The notes below the pieces were generated by a model. It made no database searches. It was given only the letters and a program-made list of their open reading frames with translations, and was not told the origin of the DNA. Below, in pieces: positions 1-8,910 of a stretch of 64,000 nucleotides of DNA (the first letter of the stretch is position 1; every line of letters starts with the position of its first letter). The translations under genes and the position numbers were made by a program. The stretch is from NCBI GenBank assembly GCA_002411015.1, contig DHPY01000075.1:28307-92306 (forward strand), written 5' to 3'. Origin of the DNA: Armatimonadetes bacterium UBA5352 (lineage in GTDB: Bacteria > Armatimonadota > Zipacnadia > Zipacnadales > UBA5352).

Positions 1-1512
1 GCCGATCGCGAGCTTGAGCGGCTGGAGACGATGAACCCGGCCGCGGCCGAGTATAACGTCACGCGGACCTACCTCGAGTGGCTGGTGGATGTCCCGTGGC
101 TTGAGGCGTCGGACGCGACCATTGACGTGAAGCAGGCGCAGCAGGTGCTCGATGAGGATCACTATGATCTTGAGGACGTGAAGGACCGGATCATCGAGTA
201 CCTTGCGGTCCGCAAGCTGCGCGAGGAGATCAAGGGCCCGATCCTCTGCTTCGTGGGCCCGCCCGGAGTCGGAAAGACCTCGCTTGGCAAGTCCGTCGCG
301 CGGGCGACCGGGCGCAAGTTCCACCGCATCTCACTCGGTGGTGTGCGGGATGAGGCGGAGGTGCGGGGCCACAGGCGCACATACGTGGGCGCGCTGCCGG
401 GCCGGATCATCCAGGGGCTCCGGCGCGTGGGGGTGAACAACCCGGTCTTCATGCTCGATGAGATCGACAAGCTCGGCAGGGGCGGCGCGTTCCAGGGCGA
501 TCCCTCCTCGGCGATGCTGGAGGTGCTCGACCCGGAGCAGAACGACACCTTCAGCGATCACTACCTGGAGGTGCCCTTCGACCTCTCGAACGTGCTGTTC
601 ATCACGACCGCCAACGTGCTGGAGACGATCCCGGCGCCGCTGCTGGACCGCATGGAGGTCATCCGGCTGGCGGGCTACACGAAGAAGGACAAGCTGCACA
701 TCGCGCGCCGCTACCTCGTGCCGCGCCAGCGTGAGGAGCACGGGCTGAGCACCGAGCAGTTCAGCATCTCTGACAAGGCGCTGGAGGCGATCATTGACGG
801 CTACACGCGCGAGGCCGGCGTGCGCAACCTTGAACGGCAGATCGGCGCCGTTGCCCGCAAGATCGCTCGCAAGGTCTCGGAGGGTGAGACGCCGTCGAAT
901 GTGAGCCTGCGGAATCTTGAGAGCATCCTCGGGCCGCGACTGTTCTACTCTGAGGTGGCGGAGCGCACCGGACAGCCGGGCGTGGTCTGCGGCCTCGCAT
1001 GGACGCAGGCGGGCGGCGACATCCTGTTCATTGAGGCCTCGAAGATGCCCGGGGCAAGCCGCCTGACGCTCACGGGACAGCTTGGTGATGTGATGAAGGA
1101 GTCGGCGATGGCGGCCCTGAGCTGGGTGCGCGCGCATGCCGAGCAGTTCGGGATCGAGCCGGACTTCTACGAGAAGACGGAGATTCATCTGCACGTGCCG
1201 GCTGGCGCGGTGCCGAAGGACGGCCCGTCGGCGGGCGTCTCGATGGCGACGGCGATTGCGTCGCTGCTAACCAACCGCAAGGTGAAGCCGAATGTGGCGA
1301 TGACCGGTGAGATCACGCTGCGGGGCAAGGTGCTGCCGATCGGCGGCGTGAAGGAGAAGGTTGTGGCGGCGAAGTCGGCGGGGATCGACACGGTGATCCT
1401 CCCGCGGCGCAACCAGCCGCAGGTGGAGGAGGTCCCGAAGGACCTGACGGAGGGGATGACCTTCATCTTCGCGGATACGATCGAGGATGTGCTGAACGCG
1501 GCGCTGGAGTAG
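1..1512 (+). CDS. lon: Lon protease, C-terminal part (AAA+ ATPase module plus S16 proteolytic domain); reading frame is open to position 1, so the 5' end lies outside the window
   Basis: Walker [10 protein letters not shown]. Lon proteolytic domain with PKDGPSAGV (catalytic Ser) and downstream Lys in [11 protein letters not shown]. Frame continues upstream of the first ATG (31) to nt 1. Confidence 0.9.
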
Positions 1513-1520
1513 GCAGTACC

Positions 1521-1580
1521 GACAGGCCGGGAAGCCTGTCCCACATGACGATACGGCAACGGCCACCTGGGCCGTTGCCG
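1521..1580. terminator. Two consecutive GC-rich hairpins between convergent lon and the eRF1-like gene: GACAGGC-n6-GCCTGTC (1521-1540) and CGGCAACGGCC-acctg-GGCCGTTGCCG (1554-1580), followed by TTCCCCTTTC
   Basis: Perfect reverse-complement stems read directly. Location immediately 3' of lon and 3' of the minus-strand gene ending at 1619. Confidence 0.55.
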
Positions 1581-1614
1581 TTCCCCTTTCACCCTTCACC
1601 TCTCCCCCTTCACC
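1581..1614 (+). repeat. Copy 1 of an intergenic REP-like motif (CTTTCACCCTTCACCtCTCcCC)
   Basis: Shares the core TTCACCCTT(T)CACC with 26081-26110 and the reverse complement of 47041-47068. All three copies abut terminator hairpins at convergent-gene junctions. Confidence 0.5.
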
Positions 1615-1618
1615 GCCG

Positions 1619-2782
1619 TCAGTAGCGCAGGATGACGGCTGCGCCGCGGCCGTCGCCGGGGATCTCCTCGGCAGGAAGCATGTAGGTCGTCCCGCCGTTG
1701 CGCATCGTATTCACCGCCGCGTAGTCGATGAGGTCGTAGTCGCCCGCACGTGGCTCGGCACGAAGCTCCACCTCATCGCCGTCGTCCGGCACGCGCCCCC
1801 AGTAGTCGCTGTCTACCGCTCCGAAGAGCACGCCCGCGCGGCCATCGCGCGCCGCGATCACCGCCGCCTTCACGTCATCGGAGGCGCGCCCGTAGGCGCG
1901 TGCAAGCTCGAAGCTCTCCCGGGCCTCGTCAATGCGCCGGCGCAGGTGCGGATCGACGACCTCCCAGGCGGCCTCGCGGATCTCCTCCGGCCGGGCGCGC
2001 TCGAAGCTCCCCGTGAGCGGCGTCTCAAGCAGGTGATCGTAGGTGTTGGCGTCGCGGTAGCGATCGAAGAGCCACTCCACACCGGCAAAGACGAGCGGTG
2101 ACTCGCCATCCAGGTACTTCACCAGCCCGGTGCTCACGTCGCGGAAGAAGCGGAAGACCTGGTGCGCCTCCATCCTCTCGCCCTTGCCCTGCCCGTGATA
2201 CACCACGGCCTGGTCATCGCGGCCCTGGCCGCGCGCGCCAACGCTGTGATACTGCAGCAACTTCTGAGGCTCGACGTCCGGGATCACCTCAAGGATATGC
2301 TGCGGCACGTCTCTTCGCGGCAGGGGCTGCTCGACCTGCGCGTGGCGGGTGCAGACAAGGAGCCGCACGTCATGGCGGCTGATCGCGAGCACGTAGAAGC
2401 GCGCGTTGTCGGTGAGCACCGGCAGCAGCGGCTTGAGGTGGAAGCGGTCGCTCACGAAGGTCCTCCCCGCCGAGACCTGCACCGGCGAGAACATGATCTG
2501 ACTGTACTGCTCCGAGAGGAACGCGCAGAGCGTGCCTGCTCCGTAGTCGTTGTTGGGCGCGAGGGCCTCGAGGAACTCGTATCCCGGGGCGAGCATGCCG
2601 TCCACCATCGACCGGTCGGCGCCCTGCTCCACCAGCATCTCGGCGGCCTCACGAAGCGCGTTCTTCAGCCAGATCGGGTCACCCACCGCCTCCGGACCGG
2701 AGTCGTGGGTCGGCGAGTAGATTGACACGCACAGTCCCTGCCGCGGCTGTGAGAGTTGCTCGAATATCTCCTGCGTCAGCAT
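1619..2782 (-). CDS. eRF1/Pelota(Dom34)-like protein (bacterial archaeo-eukaryotic release-factor-like, baeRF-type); function unknown
   Basis: 387 aa. Central HGQGKG motif in a context resembling eRF1 domain 2 (HGRGGQS). C-terminus ...GDGRGAAVILRY resembles the eRF1/Pelota domain-3 tail (GGIGGILRY). RBS GGAGG 8 nt upstream of ATG at 2782. Confidence 0.45.
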   Translation of the reverse strand: MLTQEIFEQLSQPRQGLCVSIYSPTHDSGPEAVGDPIWLKNALREAAEMLVEQGADRSMVDGMLAPGYEFLEALAPNNDYGAGTLCAFLSEQYSQIMFSPVQVSAGRTFVSDRFHLKPLLPVLTDNARFYVLAISRHDVRLLVCTRHAQVEQPLPRRDVPQHILEVIPDVEPQKLLQYHSVGARGQGRDDQAVVYHGQGKGERMEAHQVFRFFRDVSTGLVKYLDGESPLVFAGVEWLFDRYRDANTYDHLLETPLTGSFERARPEEIREAAWEVVDPHLRRRIDEARESFELARAYGRASDDVKAAVIAARDGRAGVLFGAVDSDYWGRVPDDGDEVELRAEPRAGDYDLIDYAAVNTMRNGGTTYMLPAEEIPGDGRGAAVILRY

Positions 2783-2913
2783 TCCATCTGCCTCCTCATG
2801 CCCCTCGACAAACGCGGCACATCATGACCTCTCGCTAACACGATTCGCTGCAGGCGAGCGCAGTGCCTGCCTAAGTTACGGGCCATGTCGGACCACCGTC
2901 GCTGAGGGTGAAG

Positions 2914-2969: not shown

Positions 2970-4937
2970 TTGAGTAGAGACGGTCGTGGAGTGAGCGAGT
3001 GTATGATGCGAGGCGGCTGGTCAGGCCCGGAGAGGACGATTGGTGGCATGGGACGCGGCTTTGGGCTGCATCATGGCCACCACTTCCACTTCGATGAGGA
3101 TGACATGCCGGAAACGCCGATGACGCGCGAGCAGATCAGGCGCGTGCTGAAGTACTTCACCCCGTACTGGGCGCAGTGGCTCGTGATCCTGCTGTGCATC
3201 GCGGCGTCCTCAGGACTCGGCGTTCTGCCGCCACTCCTGGTGAAGGGGATCCTCGATGACGCGATCCCAAACGCGAACCCGAGCCTGCTGCACCTTCTCG
3301 TGGGCGGGATCGTGGGCCTGACGATCGTCACCGGCCTGATCGGCGTGCTGCAGAACTGGCTGAGCTCGAAGGTCGGCCAGAACATAATGCACGACCTGCG
3401 GGAGGCGCTGTATCGGCACCTGCAGGCGCAGTCACTCGGCTTCTACACCACCGAGCGCGCCGGTGAGATCGTCTCGCGCGTGAACAACGATGTCGGCGCC
3501 GTTCAGCAGGTGGCATCGGGGACGATCGTGGACATCGCGCGCAACCTGTTCACGCTCATCGCCACCCTGATTGCGATGATCGCTCTGGACCCGTGGCTGA
3601 CGCTGCTGGCGGTCATTGTGGTGCCGACGTTCTACCTTCCGACGCGCATTGTCGGGCGCATCCGACACAGGCTCTCGCGGCAGACGCAGGAGCAGTACGC
3701 CGAGATGGTGGCGTTCATGCAGGAGCGCCTGAACATCGGCGGGATGCTGCTCTCGAAGATCTTCGGCCAGGTGGAGCCGGACGCGGCGCAGTTTGCAGAA
3801 CGCAGTAACCAGGTGGCCGAGTTGAACGTGAAGCAGGCGATGGCCGGGCGTTGGCTGTTCATGGTGCTCTCGGTCTTCAGCGTCGCCGGGCCGGCCCTGA
3901 TCTACCTGCTTGGTGGCCACCAGGCGATCCGCGGCGCGCTCACGATCGGTACTCTCATCGCCTTCGTCGCCTACCTGACGGACCTCTACCGGCCGATGGG
4001 CCAGATCGCGAGCTTCTACGTGAACCTGCAGGGCGCTATGGCGGTCTTCGAGCGCATCTTCGACTACCTCGACCGCGAGCCTGAAGTGCGCGACAGCGAT
4101 GATGCGGTAGAGCTGGTGAAGGTTCACGGCGATATCGCCCTGGAGCACGTCAGCTTCCGCTACCCGCGGCCTCACTACCTCAACCTGCGCAAGAAGGGCG
4201 ATGAGGTCGCGCCTGACGAGAGCCGCCAGGCGCTGACGGATGTATCCTTCGGGATCGGCGCGGGCGAACGCGTTGCGCTGGTCGGCCCCTCGGGCGCCGG
4301 CAAGACCACCGTCACCTACCTGCTACCGCGCTTCTACGATCCAACGGAGGGGCGGATCCTCCTCGACGGCCATGACCTGCGCGAGATCACGCAGGAGTCG
4401 CTGCGCAGGCACTTCGGCGTGGTCACGCAGGACACGTTCCTCTTCCATACGAGCGTGCGCGAGAACCTGTTGTACGCGCGCCCGGAGGCAACCGAGGATG
4501 AGATCTACGCCGCGGCGCAGTCGGCGAACATCCACGAGTTCATCACCGGGCTTCCCGAGGGCTACGAGACGATCGTAGGCGAGCGGGGCTTCCGCCTGTC
4601 CGGCGGCGAGAAGCAGCGGCTGGCGATCGCGCGCGCGCTGCTCAAGGACCCGGACATCCTGATCCTCGACGAGGCCACAAGCCACCTCGACGCGACGAGC
4701 GAGCACCTGATCCAGGAGGCGCTGGAGGTGCTGCTGAAGGGCCGCACGAGCGTGATCATCGCCCACCGGCTCTCGACGATCCTCACCGCCGACAAGATCG
4801 TGGTGCTGGATCGCGGCCGGCTGGTCGAGGTCGGCACGCACGCTGAACTGCTTCGCGGAGGCGGGCTCTACGCGGAGTTGTTCGATCGGCAGTTTGGCGA
4901 GGCGATAGACCAGGCGCGGGCGGCCGCGGGCGGGTAG
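2970..4937 (+). CDS. ABC transporter, fused permease/ATP-binding exporter (MsbA/ABCB-like). Start ambiguous: TTG at 2970, or ATG at 3105 or 3120 preceding TM1
   Basis: Six-TM exporter-type N-terminal half. Walker A GPSGAGKTT. ABC signature LSGGEKQRLAIARAL. Walker B ILILDEATSHLD. H-loop IIAHRL. Confidence 0.9.
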   Translation: MSRDGRGVSECMMRGGWSGPERTIGGMGRGFGLHHGHHFHFDEDDMPETPMTREQIRRVLKYFTPYWAQWLVILLCIAASSGLGVLPPLLVKGILDDAIPNANPSLLHLLVGGIVGLTIVTGLIGVLQNWLSSKVGQNIMHDLREALYRHLQAQSLGFYTTERAGEIVSRVNNDVGAVQQVASGTIVDIARNLFTLIATLIAMIALDPWLTLLAVIVVPTFYLPTRIVGRIRHRLSRQTQEQYAEMVAFMQERLNIGGMLLSKIFGQVEPDAAQFAERSNQVAELNVKQAMAGRWLFMVLSVFSVAGPALIYLLGGHQAIRGALTIGTLIAFVAYLTDLYRPMGQIASFYVNLQGAMAVFERIFDYLDREPEVRDSDDAVELVKVHGDIALEHVSFRYPRPHYLNLRKKGDEVAPDESRQALTDVSFGIGAGERVALVGPSGAGKTTVTYLLPRFYDPTEGRILLDGHDLREITQESLRRHFGVVTQDTFLFHTSVRENLLYARPEATEDEIYAAAQSANIHEFITGLPEGYETIVGERGFRLSGGEKQRLAIARALLKDPDILILDEATSHLDATSEHLIQEALEVLLKGRTSVIIAHRLSTILTADKIVVLDRGRLVEVGTHAELLRGGGLYAELFDRQFGEAIDQARAAAGG

Positions 4938-5018
4938 CGGAACAACGCCGAAGGTTTCGGACTCCCATGCGGGGAATAGGCGCTGTGATGCGCGCATTCT
5001 CCCCCGGGAGCACTCGAG

Positions 5019-7007
5019 ATGGCTGCTGAAGTCGGCGTGGAGCAGGACCAGAAGCTGGATCGCTCTGAGATGATGGGGCTGACGGTGAGGGCCGTCATCA
5101 TCTCAATCATCTTCTGCCTCATCTCGGCCCTGTGGATCTCGCAGTCCGAGGTCGTGACGCGTTTCTGCCAGATCACGGAGGCCGTTCCGGCCGTCCCCGC
5201 GGTGGCGTTTCTGATCCTCCTGGTCGTGCTGAACCCGTTCGTGCGCCGCATCAGCAGGTGGCTTGCCCTGGACCGCCGCGAGGTCCTGATGGTCTACGTG
5301 TTCCTCACCGTCGCGACCTCGATGGCGGGCTGCGGGATCGCCCGCTTCTTCATCAACACCATCCCGGTCCCGTTCTACTTCAACACCACTGAGAACCAAC
5401 TGGATGAGATCCAACCGCTGATTCCGCAGTGGTTCGTGCCGCACGATTCCGAGACAATCCGCCTCCTCTATGAGGCCTCCGATACGGGCGCGGTGCCGTG
5501 GCGGGCGTGGTCGGGGCCGCTGGCAGCGTGGGGCATCTTCTTCCTGGCGCTCTGGGTGACGATGCTCGCGATGATGGTCATCATGCGCAGGCAGTGGTCG
5601 GAGAAAGAGAAGCTGACCTACCCGCTGCTCTATCTGCCCGTGGAACTGACGGAGGATGTAAACACGTCCGCGCTCGTCTCAGGCTTCTTCCGCAACCCCA
5701 TCATGTGGACCGGGTTCGCCATCGCGGCTTTGTATAACATCGCCAACATCATCAACGCCTACAACCCCGGCTTCACCGCGATGGGCAAGTTCTATGACAT
5801 TGGCGCGCTCTTTACGGAGCGGCCGTGGGCGGATATCAAGCCGCTGCAGATCCACTACAGGCCCGAGATGGTCGGCTTCGGCTACCTCGTCAGCACCGAG
5901 GTGGCGCTGAGCATCTGGGTGTTCTACCTGATCATGCGTCTCGAAGCGGTGGCCGCCGCGGCCGGCGGGCTCGATGTCGCCGGCTTCCCGTTCGTGCAGG
6001 AGCAGGGCCTCGGGGCATACCTCGCGATGGCGATCCTGCTGCTGTGGATCGCGCGCCATCACATCGCTGACGTCCTCGGGAAAGCCGTGGGTACACGGCC
6101 GCATGTTGATGACTCCGATGAACCGATGAGCTACCGCGGGGCGCTGATCGCCTTCGTGGTCGGCCTTGCGGTGACGCTCGCGTGGGTGAAGGCGGCGGGC
6201 ATGGCGCTGTGGCTGGCGGTGCTCTACTTCGCGCTGCTGCTGGCGGTAGCGCTGGTCTACGCCCGTATCCGCGCGGAGGTGGGCGTGCCGCTGATCTGGA
6301 TGTTCCCCTACTTCCAGCACTTCAAGGCGATCAAGTACACGCTCGGGACCGCGCCGCTGCAGAAGTACGGTGGCCTGGAGTCGCTGACCGCCTTCACCTC
6401 GCTGGTCTTCCTCTCACGCGGCTACTACCCGGCGCTGATCGGCTACCAGGCGGAGGGATTCCGTATCGCGCGTGACACGCAGATCCGACAGAAGTCGATG
6501 AGCTGGCTGCTCATCATTGCGCTGGTCGTGGGCCTGTACGTGAGCGTGGCGCTGCACCTGCGCGACTACTACGAATACGGCTCCGGTGGCCTCAACGCCC
6601 AGGGCGGCTGGGGCTATCAGATCGCCCTCACGGAGTATGAGGCCATCACCACCTACCAGAAGGGCCACGCGCCGCCGGACTACTGGCGCATCGGCGCGAC
6701 CTCCGGCGGCTTCATCATCACCACCGTGCTGATGATCCTGCGCATGATCTTCCTGCGCTTCCCGCTGCACCCGCTGGCGTTCGGGATGGCCGGCTCCTAC
6801 GGCAGCCTGATCTGGGGCAGCTTCTTCATCGTGTGGGTGGTGAAGAGCATCATCTTCAAGCTCGGGGGGATGTCTGGCTACCGGCGGCTCATCCCAGGGT
6901 TCCTGGGACTGGCGCTGGGACACTACTTCACCGCCGGGATCGTCTGGGGCATCATCGGGATGGGCCTCGGTGAGACCGTCAACACCTACTACGTCTTCTT
7001 CGGATAG
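5019..7007 (+). CDS. Large polytopic integral membrane protein of unknown function (662 aa), co-directional with the ABC exporter
   Basis: Many hydrophobic segments throughout. No recognisable catalytic motif. Long uninterrupted ORF with host-like codon usage. Confidence 0.6.
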   Translation: MAAEVGVEQDQKLDRSEMMGLTVRAVIISIIFCLISALWISQSEVVTRFCQITEAVPAVPAVAFLILLVVLNPFVRRISRWLALDRREVLMVYVFLTVATSMAGCGIARFFINTIPVPFYFNTTENQLDEIQPLIPQWFVPHDSETIRLLYEASDTGAVPWRAWSGPLAAWGIFFLALWVTMLAMMVIMRRQWSEKEKLTYPLLYLPVELTEDVNTSALVSGFFRNPIMWTGFAIAALYNIANIINAYNPGFTAMGKFYDIGALFTERPWADIKPLQIHYRPEMVGFGYLVSTEVALSIWVFYLIMRLEAVAAAAGGLDVAGFPFVQEQGLGAYLAMAILLLWIARHHIADVLGKAVGTRPHVDDSDEPMSYRGALIAFVVGLAVTLAWVKAAGMALWLAVLYFALLLAVALVYARIRAEVGVPLIWMFPYFQHFKAIKYTLGTAPLQKYGGLESLTAFTSLVFLSRGYYPALIGYQAEGFRIARDTQIRQKSMSWLLIIALVVGLYVSVALHLRDYYEYGSGGLNAQGGWGYQIALTEYEAITTYQKGHAPPDYWRIGATSGGFIITTVLMILRMIFLRFPLHPLAFGMAGSYGSLIWGSFFIVWVVKSIIFKLGGMSGYRRLIPGFLGLALGHYFTAGIVWGIIGMGLGETVNTYYVFFG

Positions 7008-7028
7008 CAGCAACACGGAGCTGAGATC

Positions 7029-7808
7029 ATGCGGGTCGGACTGATCGCCGGAAGCGGCGTGGAGGGCCTCTACAACGGAGCCCCTACCCGTGTAGAGAGC
7101 GTCGCCACGGACTACGGCGGCGTCGGGGCATTCGTGCTGGAGGTAGCTGAGGACCACGAGGTGGTCTTCCTGCCGCGCCACGGGAAAGGCCACTCGATCC
7201 CGCCGCACATGATCAACTACCGCGCGAACATCCGTGCGCTGGAGCAGCTCGGCTGCACCTGCGTAATCGCCACGAACGCGGTCGGCTCGATGAACGAGCA
7301 GATGCAGCCGGGTGACCTTGTGGTCTGCGACCAACTCCTCGACTTCACGAAGCAGCGGCCGCTCACGTTCTACGATGGCGAGGATGGCATCGTGCGCCAT
7401 GTGGATGTCACGCAGCCCTACTGCGCCCGCGTGCGCAGGGCGCTGCGCGAGGGCTGCAGGGTCGCCCTCGGCGAGGAGCTGCACCCGAGCGGCGTCTACG
7501 TCTGCGCCGAGGGACCGCGCTTCGAGACGGCGGCGGAGATCAGGATGTACCGGCAACTTGGCGGCGACGTGGTGGGCATGACCGGCGTGCCAGAGGCGGT
7601 GCTGGCGCGCGAGGCGGGCCTGTGCTACGCGACGGTGTGTGTGATCAGCAACTGGGCAGCGGGAATAAGGGCAGAGCGCGTCTCGCATGCAGAGGTCATC
7701 GAGATCATGGAACGCCGCCAGGCAGACCTGCGGTGCATGCTGCGCGAGGCGATCGCCCGCGTGACGGATGATCCGAAGTGCGCTTGCAGGCGGCCGTTCG
7801 CGCCGTGA
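7029..7808 (+). CDS. mtnP: S-methyl-5'-thioadenosine (MTA) phosphorylase / purine nucleoside phosphorylase family
   Basis: PNP_UDP_1-type motifs: LPRHGKGHSIPPHMINYRANIRAL, VCAEGPRFET, GMTGVPEAVLAREAGLCYA. Confidence 0.8.
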   Translation: MRVGLIAGSGVEGLYNGAPTRVESVATDYGGVGAFVLEVAEDHEVVFLPRHGKGHSIPPHMINYRANIRALEQLGCTCVIATNAVGSMNEQMQPGDLVVCDQLLDFTKQRPLTFYDGEDGIVRHVDVTQPYCARVRRALREGCRVALGEELHPSGVYVCAEGPRFETAAEIRMYRQLGGDVVGMTGVPEAVLAREAGLCYATVCVISNWAAGIRAERVSHAEVIEIMERRQADLRCMLREAIARVTDDPKCACRRPFAP

Positions 7809-7837
7809 CGGGGTCACTGCCACAGGAGGTCGCAGAC

Positions 7838-8094
7838 ATGACCGAGCATGTGAAGCTCGCCGCGCATCCATACGGCTACACCGCAGTCGTCGCTGAGGGC
7901 GACCTCTACCGCGCAGCCGAGCAGATCTTCAGCGACCTCGGCATCGGGTGCAGCTTGCGAAGTTCATCAATGAGATGCACTTCCGGGGCTGGATCGGGGT
8001 CGAGCTTGCCTTCCGGCCGGAGCACCCGGTGACGCGCTCGATGGGCCAGAACTACGCGCTGTGCCTGGATTCCCTGAGGAAGACGCTGGCCTGA
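7838..8094 (+). pseudogene. Small ORF with apparent -1 frameshift (frame 2 to frame 1 near 7945-7955). Combined product about 85 aa, possibly a remnant of a sugar-phosphate-isomerase-like N-terminus
   Basis: RBS AGGAGG 9 nt before ATG 7838. Protein-like text MTEHVKLAAHPYGYTAVVAEGDLYRAAEQIFSDLGIG continues in another frame as VQLAKFINEMHFRGWIGVELAFRPEHPVTRSMGQNYALCLDSLRKTLA (stop 8092-8094). The original frame degenerates into low-complexity S/R/G text. Confidence 0.3.
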
Positions 8095-8136
8095 CCTCTC
8101 CCCCACGCTAACGACACTCGAAACGGAGCGCAATCA

Positions 8137-8910
8137 TTGAAGCAATACGACGGCTACCTGTTTGACCTTGACGGAACGATCTATCTTGGTGATGAGTTGA
8201 TCCCTGGCGCAGACCGGACGGTTGCGAAGCTGCGGGAGCGCGGGGCGCGGGTGCAGTTCCTCTCGAACAAGCCGATTGCGCGGCGTGAGACCTACGCGAC
8301 GAAGCTGACGAAGCTCGGCATCCCCTGCACGCCGCAGGATGTCGTGAACTCGCCGCTGGCGAGCGCGCGATACCTTGCGAGCGAGCACCCGGGCAAGCGC
8401 GTGATGGTGATGGGCGAGGCGCCGCTGCGGCAGGAGCTGCTGGATGCGGGCGTCATCCTCACCGATCGCGTGGATGAGACCGACATCCTCCTCGTCTCCT
8501 GGGACCGCGAGATCTGCTGGCCGCAGATGGACGCGGCGCACCAGGCGCTGCGGCAGGGCGCGCGGTTCTTCGGAACGAACCCGGATACCGTCTGCCCCGT
8601 GGAGGGCGGACGGACGGTTCCGGATGCAGGTGCGATGATCGCCTACCTTGAGGCCTCGACGGACAGGAGGCTCGAGGTGATGGTCGGCAAGCCCTCGCCA
8701 ATCATCACCGAGATGGCCCTGGCGGAGGTCGGACTGGCGCCGGAGCAGTGCCTGATGATCGGCGACCGCCTCGGCACGGACATCGCGATGGGCGCGACCG
8801 CCGGCCTTGACACCGCGCTGGTGCTGACGGGTGTGACGAGCCGGGAGATGCTGGATGCCTCAAGCGCGAAGCCGACGTGGGTGCTGGGGTCGGTGGCGGA
8901 GATCGAGTAG
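8137..8910 (+). CDS. HAD-superfamily hydrolase, subfamily IIA (NagD/p-nitrophenyl-phosphatase-like); TTG start
   Basis: FDLDGT motif I. LSNKP. C-terminal GDRLGTDI. GGAG RBS 8 nt upstream of TTG at 8137. Confidence 0.8.
   Translation: MKQYDGYLFDLDGTIYLGDELIPGADRTVAKLRERGARVQFLSNKPIARRETYATKLTKLGIPCTPQDVVNSPLASARYLASEHPGKRVMVMGEAPLRQELLDAGVILTDRVDETDILLVSWDREICWPQMDAAHQALRQGARFFGTNPDTVCPVEGGRTVPDAGAMIAYLEASTDRRLEVMVGKPSPIITEMALAEVGLAPEQCLMIGDRLGTDIAMGATAGLDTALVLTGVTSREMLDASSAKPTWVLGSVAEIE

What the first reader, a model, noticed from the sequence alone, without database searches (positions are those of the whole stretch)
1619..2782. Bacterial eRF1/Pelota-like (baeRF-type) protein with HGQG motif and AVILRY C-terminus next to lon
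Seen: the 387-aa product contains VVYHGQGKGERMEAHQVFRFFRD. This region resembles the eRF1 domain-2 segment around the catalytic GGQ (KKHGRGGQSAxRFARLR) and keeps a G-Q dipeptide. The protein ends ...PGDGRGAAVILRY, strikingly like the eRF1/Pelota domain-3 terminus (...FGGIGGILRY / GGIAAILRF).
Established knowledge: several bacterial eRF1/Dom34-like (baeRF) families exist. They are poorly characterised and proposed to act in ribosome rescue or in conflict systems targeting translation.
Inference: this is one such protein. Its position convergent with lon, upstream of an ABC exporter, gives no obvious operon context, so its biological role here is open. A Gln-bearing motif would imply peptidyl-tRNA hydrolysis capability.
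Basis: partly seen in the sequence, partly recalled or inferred. Interest (0 to 1): 0.6.

Follow-up and report, generated by a model that had tools for sequence, protein, structure and literature searches.

The report
Balon-family ribosome hibernation factor gene
This gene encodes a bacterial relative of the eukaryotic release factor eRF1 that belongs to the same family as Balon, a protein shown in 2024 to park in idle ribosomes during stress, so it is most likely a ribosome hibernation factor and not a peptide-releasing enzyme.

Summary

The C-terminal ...ILRY is a conserved family feature. The HGQG motif lies in the loop that is topologically equivalent to the GGQ loop, and [FY]-H-G-[QH]-G is strongly conserved in a large long-loop subfamily. 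The Gln itself alternates freely with His (44 Q / 36 H in 81 species) and is Arg in the short-loop branch. There is no GG dipeptide, and no profile alignment pairs it with eRF1 Q185. Peptidyl-tRNA hydrolysis is therefore not supported.

The gene is monocistronic. In Armatimonadota it is conserved convergent to an hsp20-lon stress operon. No defence-system signal was found.

Verdict: a new member of a known kind. The conserved HG[QH]G loop is the only open point.

The parts
1619..2782 (-). Complete gene for a 387-aa Balon-family (baeRF family 3) protein, stop codon included
2791..2797 (-). Shine-Dalgarno GAGGAGG, 8 nt upstream of the ATG
   Evidence: Read from the sequence. AGGAGG plus ATG is the only upstream element conserved among seven Armatimonadota/WS1 relatives.
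2408..2782 (-). N-terminal domain (about residues 1-125); no NIKS motif
   Evidence: AF2 secondary structure. 'NIKS' is absent. Aligns full length with the Balon N domain.
2690..2710 (-). Loop T25-H-D-S-G-P-E31 between strand 18-25 and helix 32-52. It aligns with the Balon segment T-H-R-E-H-P-A that carries the decoding-centre 'HP motif'
   Evidence: Alignments. Model. Role of the HP motif from PMC10901736.
2423..2446 (-). R113-FHLKPL-L120, the most conserved block of the family (N/M-domain junction); F114-H115 align with eRF1 F131-H132
   Evidence: Nearly invariant columns. hhalign. Used as the scan pattern.
1892..2407 (-). Middle (RNase-H-like, peptidyl-transferase-centre-facing) domain, about residues 126-297
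   Evidence: The Pfam baeRF_family3 match covers residues 128-315. Model.
2192..2302 (-). Long flexible loop (residues 161-197, pLDDT about 54-56). It is topologically equivalent to the eRF1 GGQ loop and the Balon lasso loop, but about 28 residues longer than in eRF1 and about 20 longer than in Balon
   Evidence: Per-block pLDDT and DSSP. Loop lengths 52 versus 34 residues in the long-loop and short-loop branches. Gap in Balon. Anchors from hhalign.
2246..2257 (-). L176-Q177-Y178-H179, first conserved block inside the loop (Q177 77/81, H179 55/81 or R)
2186..2197 (-).
   Evidence: H196 78/81, G197 79/81, position 198 Q44/H36, G199 73/81. Broader set. Helix start.
1619..1891 (-). C-terminal (Pelota/L7Ae-like) domain, about residues 298-387, plus the stop codon
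1757..1807 (-). Beta-hairpin insertion (residues 326-342; strands 328-330 and 339-341, W328-G329 invariant). Corresponds to Balon's EF-Tu-binding beta-loop and to the two-strand insert of baeRF-1 proteins
   Evidence: DSSP. G329 81/81. Ungapped alignment to Balon here. Descriptions in PMC10901736 and PMC6514570.
1622..1639 (-). C-terminal A-V-I-L-R-Y
   Evidence: R386 114/116 and Y387 102/116. Balon ends ...LVTRY and Msmeg1130 ...AVLRW. eRF1 GGILRY is aligned by hhalign.
1553..1581 (.). Perfect 12-bp inverted repeat (ACGGCAACGGCC / GGCCGTTGCCGT, 5-nt loop) between the convergent stop codons of lon and this gene. Probably a bidirectional terminator hairpin
   Evidence: the repeat finder. No canonical T-run terminator was found, so the function is inferred.
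31..1512 (+). 3' part of lon (AAA+ and Lon_C domains), convergent neighbour. On the full contig it is preceded by hsp20
   Evidence: Pfam. L001 gene table. The same arrangement occurs in L008, L009 and L011.

Best explanation
The gene encodes a Balon-type ribosome hibernation factor of an uncultured Armatimonadota bacterium.

Proposed mechanism, inferred by homology to three cryo-EM-characterised relatives:
1. Under stress or in stationary phase the three-domain, tRNA-shaped protein enters the ribosomal A site without needing an mRNA codon.
2. The N-domain loop (T25-P30) contacts the decoding centre.
3. [quoted passage not shown] There they bind rRNA (the A2602 region) and possibly the P-site tRNA CCA end or bL27.
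4. The C domain with its beta-hairpin faces the factor-binding site, where Balon binds EF-Tu-GDP.
5. Occupancy blocks tRNA and factor access, keeps the catalytic centre inert, and protects the active sites until growth resumes.

On this reading the conserved H-G-[Q/H]-G motif is an RNA-contact element of a longer 'lasso' loop that is specific to this subfamily. It is not a catalytic GGQ.

Shown here: family membership, fold, motif conservation pattern and gene context. Inferred: ribosome binding, the role of each loop, and stress regulation.
For: - Same Pfam family as the prototype: window protein baeRF_family3 112.9 bits; Balon rebuilt from PDB alignments baeRF_family3 105.6 bits.
- NCBIfam 'AOC03_06830 family ribosome hibernation factor' matches full length, E=3e-29.
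- The family profile hits Balon 8rd8_B at E=8e-48 over residues 7-382 and Msmeg1130 at 5e-12. No aeRF1 or Pelota chain appears at E<10.
- AF2 model: pLDDT 90.4, pTM 0.84.
- Foldseek: Balon E about 1e-21, TM about 0.7; eRF1/aRF1 TM 0.25-0.45.
- Bracketing: on the Balon model the window protein scores 103 bits, while Msmeg1130 scores only 36.5. Msmeg1130 is experimentally shown to bind the A site and inhibit translation.
- Shared Balon criteria: no NIKS and no GGQ string, a decoding loop aligned to the HP-motif segment, a beta-hairpin insertion with invariant W-G, and a length of 387 aa, within 360-420.
- Gln198 is replaced by His in 36/81 species and by Arg in the short-loop branch. Q/H/R is a pattern typical of nucleic-acid contacts.
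- Msmeg1130 carries 'AGQ' and falls in baeRF family 10, the family singled out as Gln-retaining. It still acts as a hibernation factor.
- A Synechocystis Balon homologue binds hibernating 70S ribosomes and contacts PTC rRNA through residues unlike those of Psychrobacter (preprint 10.64898/2026.07.03.736309).
- Context: convergent to an hsp20-lon operon, conserved in four Armatimonadota/WS1 genomes. Hsp20 is a listed Balon neighbour.
Against: - No experiment exists for this protein or, demonstrably, for any member of the long-loop HG[QH]G subfamily.
- It scores far below the NCBIfam equivalog cut-off (103 versus 330 bits).
- Sequence identity to Balon is only about 20%.
- The 'HP' dipeptide itself is G-P here.
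- The PTC-facing loop is about 20 residues longer than Balon's and carries a strongly conserved motif that Balon lacks, so its interaction at the PTC may differ.
- No HPF/RaiA gene was found next to it or in 80 related loci, although only E. coli seeds were used.
- hsp20-lon is on the opposite strand, so co-transcription is excluded and stress regulation is only suggested.
Confidence: 0.77

Rival explanations
1. It is a catalytically active release or rescue factor. The HG[QH]G loop enters the peptidyl-transferase centre and, like GGQ in eRF1/ArfB or GxxQ in Vms1, promotes hydrolysis of peptidyl-tRNA (or cleavage of the tRNA CCA end) on stalled ribosomes.
For: - The motif sits in the loop topologically equivalent to the GGQ loop, about 16-18 residues before the conserved R-x-V of the helix. 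In eRF1 the Q185-to-R203 distance is 18.
- The motif is strongly conserved across phyla: H196 78/81, G197 79/81, G199 73/81. This differs from the poorly conserved catalytic loops that Burroughs and Aravind report for most baeRF-1 families.
- Loop length is fairly constrained within the subfamily, at 45-58 residues.
Against: - The Gln is exchanged for His in about 45% of species, and for S/Y/G/T in some.
- There is no GG or G-x-small context in front of it.
- Profile alignments never pair Q198 with Q185.
- The nearest characterised relatives keep the PTC inert and preserve the nascent chain.
- Msmeg1130, with its AGQ, is a hibernation factor.
- The stop-codon recognition motifs NIKS and YxCxxxF are absent.
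Confidence: 0.08
2. It is a non-catalytic Pelota/Dom34-like rescue factor. It recognises stalled or empty-A-site ribosomes and promotes subunit splitting or recycling, instead of long-term storage.
For: - It lacks a catalytic Gln, like Dom34.
- Burroughs and Aravind proposed this option for the baeRF-1 clade.
- An Archease gene (the RtcB cofactor) is the divergent neighbour in one relative.
Against: - Bacteria lack ABCE1.
- Balon lacks Pelota's loop A, and its C-domain hairpin binds EF-Tu-GDP in a non-delivery mode. The same hairpin is conserved here.
Confidence: 0.1
3. It is a component of a conflict or anti-phage system that targets translation.
For: Burroughs and Aravind suggested that conflict-driven innovation and frequent lateral transfer shaped the baeRF-1 clade. 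A few homologues sit on plasmids (7 records).
Against: - No PADLOC model matches.
- No neighbour recurs in 80 loci; the largest cluster is an SDR in 14/80.
- The gene sits in chromosomal synteny with housekeeping and stress genes (cdaA-cdaR-glmS-hsp20-lon) that is conserved at 53-63% identity.
- No nuclease or toxin partner is present.
Confidence: 0.03

Closest known systems
Balon (AOC03_06830) of Psychrobacter urativorans, PDB 8rd8/8rdv/8rdw (Helena-Bueno et al., Nature 2024, PMC10901736)
   Same: - Same Pfam family (baeRF_family3).
- Full-length colinear homology (profile E=8e-48).
- Three domains, no NIKS, no GGQ.
- Conserved T-H...DPIxLKN decoding segment, RF motif at the N/M junction, beta-hairpin insert in the C domain, C-terminal R-Y.
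   Different: - Only about 20% identity.
- 103 bits against a 330-bit equivalog cut-off.
- G-P instead of H-P in the decoding loop.
- The M-domain loop is about 20 residues longer and carries the conserved LQxH and [FY]HG[QH]G blocks, where Balon has GDGGSDRS.
- No adjacent RaiA gene.
Mycobacterial Balon homologues Msmeg1130 (8v9j/8v9l) and Rv2629 (8v9k)
   Different: Different Pfam family for Msmeg1130 (family 10), larger C-domain insertion, AGQ in place of HGQG, and hypoxia-regulon context. They are more distant from Balon than the window protein is.
Synechocystis sp. PCC 6803 Balon homologue on LrtA-bound hibernating 70S ribosomes (preprint 10.64898/2026.07.03.736309)
   Same: It comes from a phylum where the long-loop HG[QH]G subfamily is abundant. 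It is reported to contact PTC and decoding-centre rRNA through residues unlike those of Psychrobacter Balon.
   Different: Its sequence could not be retrieved here, so membership of the same subfamily is untested. No EF-Tu contact and no binding to translating ribosomes were seen in that study.
aeRF1/eRF1 class-I release factors (e.g. 1dt9, 4af1)
   Different: No NIKS, YxCxxxF or GGQ. The loop is 28 residues longer. No significant sequence-profile match (E 0.08-0.41). It does not replace RF1/RF2 in bacteria.
Pelota/Dom34
   Same: Same fold, no catalytic Gln, codon-independent A-site binder.

Membership tests
baeRF-1 clade / Pfam PF18845 baeRF_family3 | Score above the Pfam gathering threshold on the middle domain | tested here: met
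   112.9 bits against a 31.5-bit cut-off, residues 128-315 covering profile positions 1-168/168. The prototype Balon gives 105.6 bits on the same model.
baeRF-1 clade / Pfam PF18845 baeRF_family3 | aeRF1-like three-domain architecture with a two-strand insert in the Pelota-like C domain | tested here: met
Balon-type ribosome hibernation factors (PMC10901736) | Full-length homology and structural similarity to P. urativorans Balon | tested here: met
Balon-type ribosome hibernation factors (PMC10901736) | Absence of the NIKS stop-codon motif | tested here: met
   There is no NIKS string. Of the YxCxxxF motif only the F-H is retained.
Balon-type ribosome hibernation factors (PMC10901736) | Absence of the catalytic GGQ motif | tested here: met
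   There is no GGQ string. The only candidate Gln (Q198) is H in 36/81 species and R in the short-loop branch.
Balon-type ribosome hibernation factors (PMC10901736) | Extended N-domain loop that binds the decoding centre ('HP motif' in Balon) | tested here: inconclusive
   The loop (residues 25-31) is present and aligns with Balon T-H-R-E-H-P, and T25-H26 and DPIxLKN are conserved. The H-P dipeptide is G-P here and is variable in the family.
Balon-type ribosome hibernation factors (PMC10901736) | Lasso loop around A2602 and a bL27 trap in the middle domain | not testable with these tools
   A flexible loop lies at the equivalent place, but it is about 20 residues longer and differs in sequence. 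Model coordinates could not be superposed on a ribosome complex.
Balon-type ribosome hibernation factors (PMC10901736) | Beta-hairpin insertion in the C domain (EF-Tu-GDP contact) | tested here: met
   Strands 328-330 and 339-341. W328-G329 invariant, 81/81 for G329. Ungapped alignment to Balon in this stretch.
Balon-type ribosome hibernation factors (PMC10901736) | Binds the ribosomal A site of idle ribosomes and inhibits translation | not testable with these tools
   This needs biochemistry or cryo-EM.
Balon-type ribosome hibernation factors (PMC10901736) | Stress-response gene context; a RaiA/HPF gene in the same genome | tested here: inconclusive
   The convergent hsp20-lon operon is conserved in four Armatimonadota/WS1 genomes, but it lies on the other strand. 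No HPF was detected in the window or in 89 loci with E. coli seeds. The whole genome was not available.
NCBIfam NF052287 'AOC03_06830 family ribosome hibernation factor' (equivalog) | Whole-protein score of at least 330 bits | tested here: not met
   102.7 bits. Calibration: Balon 506.7, a cyanobacterial subfamily member 136.5, Msmeg1130 36.5. The protein is a homologue outside the curated equivalog.
Class-I release factors / RF peptidyl hydrolases (aeRF1, VLRF-1) | Near-invariant catalytic Gln preceded by small residues (GGQ, GxuQ), with a narrowly constrained loop | tested here: not met
   Q/H alternation at position 198 with bulky H196 at -2 and F/Y at -3. hhalign places Q185 opposite G201 or D190.
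Pelota/Dom34 | Closest structural and sequence relationship to Pelota; loop A entering the mRNA channel | tested here: not met
Known anti-phage defence systems (PADLOC-DB 2.0) | Match to a defence-protein model, or a conserved effector neighbourhood | tested here: not met
   0 families for the protein. No neighbour cluster occurs in more than 14 of 80 loci.

The most novel reading that the evidence does not exclude
The long-loop subfamily, consensus LQxH...[FY]-H-G-[QH]-G, has more than 1700 50%-identity cluster representatives at E<=1e-30 across Cyanobacteria, Desulfobacterota, Chloroflexota, Bacillota, Armatimonadota and other phyla. It may use its extended and strongly conserved loop to act inside the peptidyl-transferase centre. 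Possibilities include gripping the P-site tRNA CCA end or A2602 in a way Balon does not, or catalysing peptidyl-tRNA hydrolysis or CCA-end processing before storage. That would make it a functionally distinct Balon variant that couples nascent-chain clearance to hibernation.
Probability: 0.1. Interest if true: 0.65.

Novelty: new member of a known kind. Interest (0 to 1): 0.3.

Why it matters
The finding turns an apparent orphan 'bacterial eRF1 with a GQ motif' into a confident functional prediction: a Balon-family hibernation factor in Armatimonadota, a phylum with very few cultured or studied members. It also shows that a literal G-Q dipeptide in the GGQ-loop position is not evidence of peptide-release activity. 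One point is of modest wider interest. A very large branch of the Balon family carries a strongly conserved H-G-[Q/H]-G motif in a lengthened PTC-facing loop that the structurally characterised Psychrobacter and mycobacterial Balons lack. How this branch engages the peptidyl-transferase centre is therefore an open and easily testable question.

Tried and rejected
1. Direct sequence evidence for eRF1/Pelota. Pfam eRF1_1/2/3 and Pelota models did not appear even at E<=10, and the family profile hit no aeRF1 or Pelota PDB chain. Homology to eRF1 therefore rests on the baeRF models and on the fold.
2. Fixing the GGQ register by profile-profile alignment. Both attempts were non-significant and disagreed in the loop: A1 against human eRF1 (E=0.41), and subfamily against a 91-sequence eRF1 profile (E=0.083). 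The eRF1 profile was all metazoan and low in diversity. Only the flanking anchors are reliable.
3. Retrieving the Synechocystis Balon sequence, to ask whether an experimentally visualised Balon carries HG[QH]G. The preprint gives no gene identifier or text supplement. The literature search, the plasmid tblastn and a cyanobacterial profile search (top 120 all other genera) all failed.
4. Conserved operon partner. Unbiased clustering of flanking ORFs in 80 genomes found none. E. coli HPF/RaiA seeds found nothing, though their sensitivity is low.
5. Conserved promoter or regulatory element upstream. Only the SD and ATG are conserved among seven relatives. There is no sigma-70-like promoter or canonical terminator, and no Rfam family or tRNA in the window.
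6. Defence-system membership. PADLOC was negative for the protein. The ABC exporter's 'mad3' hit is generic ABC-ATPase similarity.
7. A paralogue in the window. None was found.
Full report
**Observation**

The window holds an ATG-initiated ORF of 387 codons at 1619-2782 on the minus strand. A GAGGAGG ribosome-binding site lies 8 nt upstream of the start. The product contains ...VVYHGQGKGERMEAHQVFRFFRD...

- lon (31-1512, +; AAA+, Lon_lid and Lon_C domains) is convergent. A 106-nt spacer separates the two stop codons and holds a perfect 12-bp hairpin at 1553-1581.
- The ABC exporter (2970-4937, +) is divergent across a 187-nt spacer. The gene is therefore monocistronic and is not upstream of the exporter in an operon sense.

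**What the protein is**

Sequence evidence:
- Pfam assigns the middle domain to baeRF_family3 (E=2.6e-32, 112.9 bits), with weaker hits to families 7, 6, 8 and 11.
- NCBIfam gives a full-length match (E=3e-29) to 'AOC03_06830 family ribosome hibernation factor'. At 102.7 bits it is far below the 330-bit equivalog cut-off.
- phmmer against PDB sequences finds one real hit, 8rd8 chain B. The paper (PMC10901736) identifies this chain as AOC03_06830, renamed Balon, the hibernation factor found in the A site of cold-shocked Psychrobacter urativorans ribosomes.
- A profile of 116 homologues hits Balon at E=8e-48 over its whole length, the mycobacterial Balon Msmeg1130 at 5e-12, and Rv2629 weakly. 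It hits no aeRF1 or Pelota chain even at E<10.
- Balon rebuilt from those alignments has baeRF_family3 as its own best Pfam family (105.6 bits). Msmeg1130 is baeRF_family10.
- On the NCBIfam Balon model the scores are Balon 507, the window protein 103, a cyanobacterial relative 137 and Msmeg1130 only 36.5. [quoted passage not shown]

Structural evidence:
- An AlphaFold2 model built on the alignment is confident (pLDDT 90.4, pTM 0.84), except for a loop at about residues 161-197.
- Foldseek ranks the three Balon structures first (E about 1e-21, TM about 0.7). Msmeg1130 follows, then aRF1, Rv2629, eRF1 and Pelota/Dom34.
The precise address is the Balon family.

**Balon criteria**

The paper lists the features shared by Balon, Msmeg1130 and Rv2629: no NIKS plus an extended decoding-centre loop, no GGQ, and a beta-hairpin insertion in the C domain. 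The preprint version adds a length of 360-420 aa. In this protein:
- NIKS and GGQ are absent.
- The loop T25-HDSGP-E31 aligns with Balon's T-H-R-E-H-P. The H-P dipeptide itself is G-P here.
- The hairpin is modelled at 328-341 with an invariant W-G.
- The length is 387 aa.
- The lasso loop and bL27 trap cannot be assessed without superposition on a ribosome complex.

**The HGQG question**

Position:
- The motif lies in the same inter-anchor loop as GGQ. The anchors are D158-V-P160 with eRF1 D175-L-P177, and F212-F-R-D-V216 with Y201-V-R-K-V205.
- It sits at the N-terminus of the long M-domain helix 198-223. It lies 16 residues before R214; in eRF1, Q185 lies 18 residues before R203.

Conservation tells a different story:
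- In the 116-sequence set, G197 is conserved (102/116) but position 198 is R42/Q34/H29.
- In the long-loop branch (64 sequences) it is Q34/H23/S2/Y2/G2/T1. Among relatives that are at least 45% identical it is Q17/H11 plus S, Y and G.
- In an independent set of 81 species-representative genomes from many phyla, H196 is 78/81, G197 79/81 and G199 73/81. Position 198 is Q in 44 and H in 36, with one gap.
- The motif is therefore real and selected as [FY]-H-G-[QH]-G, but the Gln is freely exchanged for His. No GG or G-x-small context precedes it.

Register against eRF1:
- Two profile-profile alignments are individually non-significant.
- They place eRF1 Q185 opposite G201 or D190, never opposite Q198.

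Wider context:
- Burroughs and Aravind (PMC6514570) already concluded that most baeRF-1 families lack the catalytic Gln and are probably non-catalytic A-site binders linked to hibernation factors. They singled out family 10 as Gln-retaining.
- Msmeg1130 is family 10 and has 'AGQ'. It still proved to be a hibernation factor that lacks a functional GGQ.
- A Q/H/R substitution spectrum fits an RNA-contacting residue better than a release-factor catalytic Gln. The inference of hydrolytic capability is therefore not supported, although it is not formally excluded.

**The C-terminus**

...A-A-I-L-R-Y is one of the best conserved parts of the family: R386 in 114/116 and Y387 in 102/116, and 81/81 and 69/81 in the genome set. 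Balon ends ...LVTRY and Msmeg1130 ...AVLRW. hhalign aligns the terminus with eRF1 ...GGILRY.

**What is distinctive**

Relative to Balon and to the alphaproteobacterial short-loop branch, this protein belongs to a long-loop branch. The P160-to-F212 distance has a median of 52 residues against 34. The extra segment carries two conserved blocks, L-Q-x-H (Q177 77/81) and [FY]HG[QH]G. Balon has a gap and GDGGSDRS there.

The branch is very large and spans Armatimonadota, WS1, Cyanobacteria, Desulfobacterota, Chloroflexota, Bacillota, Synergistota, Acidobacteriota and Planctomycetota:
- at least 546 relatives in species-representative genomes
- 1719 cluster representatives at E<=1e-30
- 4484 proteins at E<=1e-20 with a cyanobacterial profile

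None of its members is in the PDB copy searched. A July 2026 preprint reports a Synechocystis Balon homologue on LrtA-bound hibernating ribosomes. [quoted passage not shown] I could not retrieve that sequence to test whether it carries the motif.

**Context**

The exact protein occurs on 18 public contigs. On the 95-kb one the order is cdaA - cdaR(YbbR) - glmS - hsp20 - lon, then the convergent Balon-like gene, then the divergent ABC exporter - DUF6785/6784 - PNP - HAD.
- The hsp20-lon convergent arrangement recurs in relatives at 53-63% identity: L008, L009 and L011.
- It is absent in P0015's genome, where the ABC side is kept instead and an IS element has inserted.
- Outside this clade no neighbour recurs. 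The largest cluster is a short-chain dehydrogenase in 14 of 80 loci.
- No HPF/RaiA was detected with E. coli seeds.
- Only the SD and start codon are conserved upstream.
- PADLOC finds nothing.
- The window has no Rfam family, tRNA or paralogue.

Hsp20 is among the neighbours listed for Balon genes. Because the strands are opposite, this is only a weak hint of stress linkage.

**Mechanism and verdict**

The best-supported reading (about 0.77) is a Balon-type hibernation factor. It would occupy the A site independently of mRNA. [quoted passage not shown] The result would be blocked translation and protected active sites during dormancy. Family, fold, motif pattern and context are shown here. 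Ribosome binding and the roles of the loops are inferred from the solved relatives.

The rivals are:
- a catalytic release or rescue factor, about 0.08
- a Pelota-like non-catalytic rescue factor, about 0.10
- a conflict-system component, about 0.03

This is a new member, in an understudied phylum, of a kind known since 2024, so overall interest is modest. The one open point is the function of the conserved HG[QH]G loop of the long-loop branch.

Noticed in passing
window 2970-8910 (+): An ABC exporter (ABC_membrane plus ABC_tran) is followed by a 662-aa polytopic DUF6785+DUF6784 protein, a PNP_UDP_1 phosphorylase and a HAD hydrolase. This order is conserved in relatives (L001, L009). In L005, where an IS (DDE_Tnp_1) has inserted, an 880-aa gene call fuses ABC_tran with DUF6785/6784. 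This hints that the DUF protein works with the ABC ATPase.
   Followed up: partly
window 1553-1581: A perfect 12-bp GC-rich inverted repeat with a 5-nt loop lies between the convergent stop codons of lon and the Balon-like gene. There is no T-run, so the consensus terminator scan missed it. It is probably a bidirectional terminator.
   Followed up: partly
L001 9271-16282 (sequence beyond the window's left edge): lon is preceded on the same strand by hsp20, glmS, a YbbR-domain protein (cdaR) and a diadenylate cyclase (cdaA). This block is conserved in L008 and L009.
   Followed up: partly
L008 6249-6671 and 4763-6158: In the genome of relative P0021, the gene divergent from the Balon-like gene is an Archease (cofactor of the RtcB RNA ligase), followed by an ECF sigma / anti-sigma pair. 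RtcB is among the neighbours reported for Balon genes.
   Followed up: no
window 2783-2800: An out-of-frame ATG (2786-2784; ATG GAA TGC TGA) lies between the Shine-Dalgarno sequence and the true start. It encodes only a 3-codon mini-ORF that overlaps the start codon. In relatives the ATG sits at the corresponding shorter spacing.
   Followed up: no
proteins P0388-P0507 (eRF1 homologues): Genuine eukaryotic eRF1s carry precomputed Pfam hits to PF18854 (baeRF_family10) and PF18859 alongside eRF1_1/2/3. The 'bacterial' family-10 model therefore cross-matches true release factors. Msmeg1130 belongs to that family.
   Followed up: no
window 1-64000: No tRNA gene and no Rfam family at gathering threshold anywhere in the 64-kb window.
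   Followed up: yes
plasmid records H1-H7: Homologues of the protein occur on seven large plasmids or secondary replicons (e.g. Rubrobacter radiotolerans at 39% identity, Nitrobacter hamburgensis, Spirosoma, Enterobacter hormaechei). All but one are annotated 'hypothetical protein'; one carries no annotation. This is consistent with the lateral mobility noted for the baeRF-1 clade.
   Followed up: no
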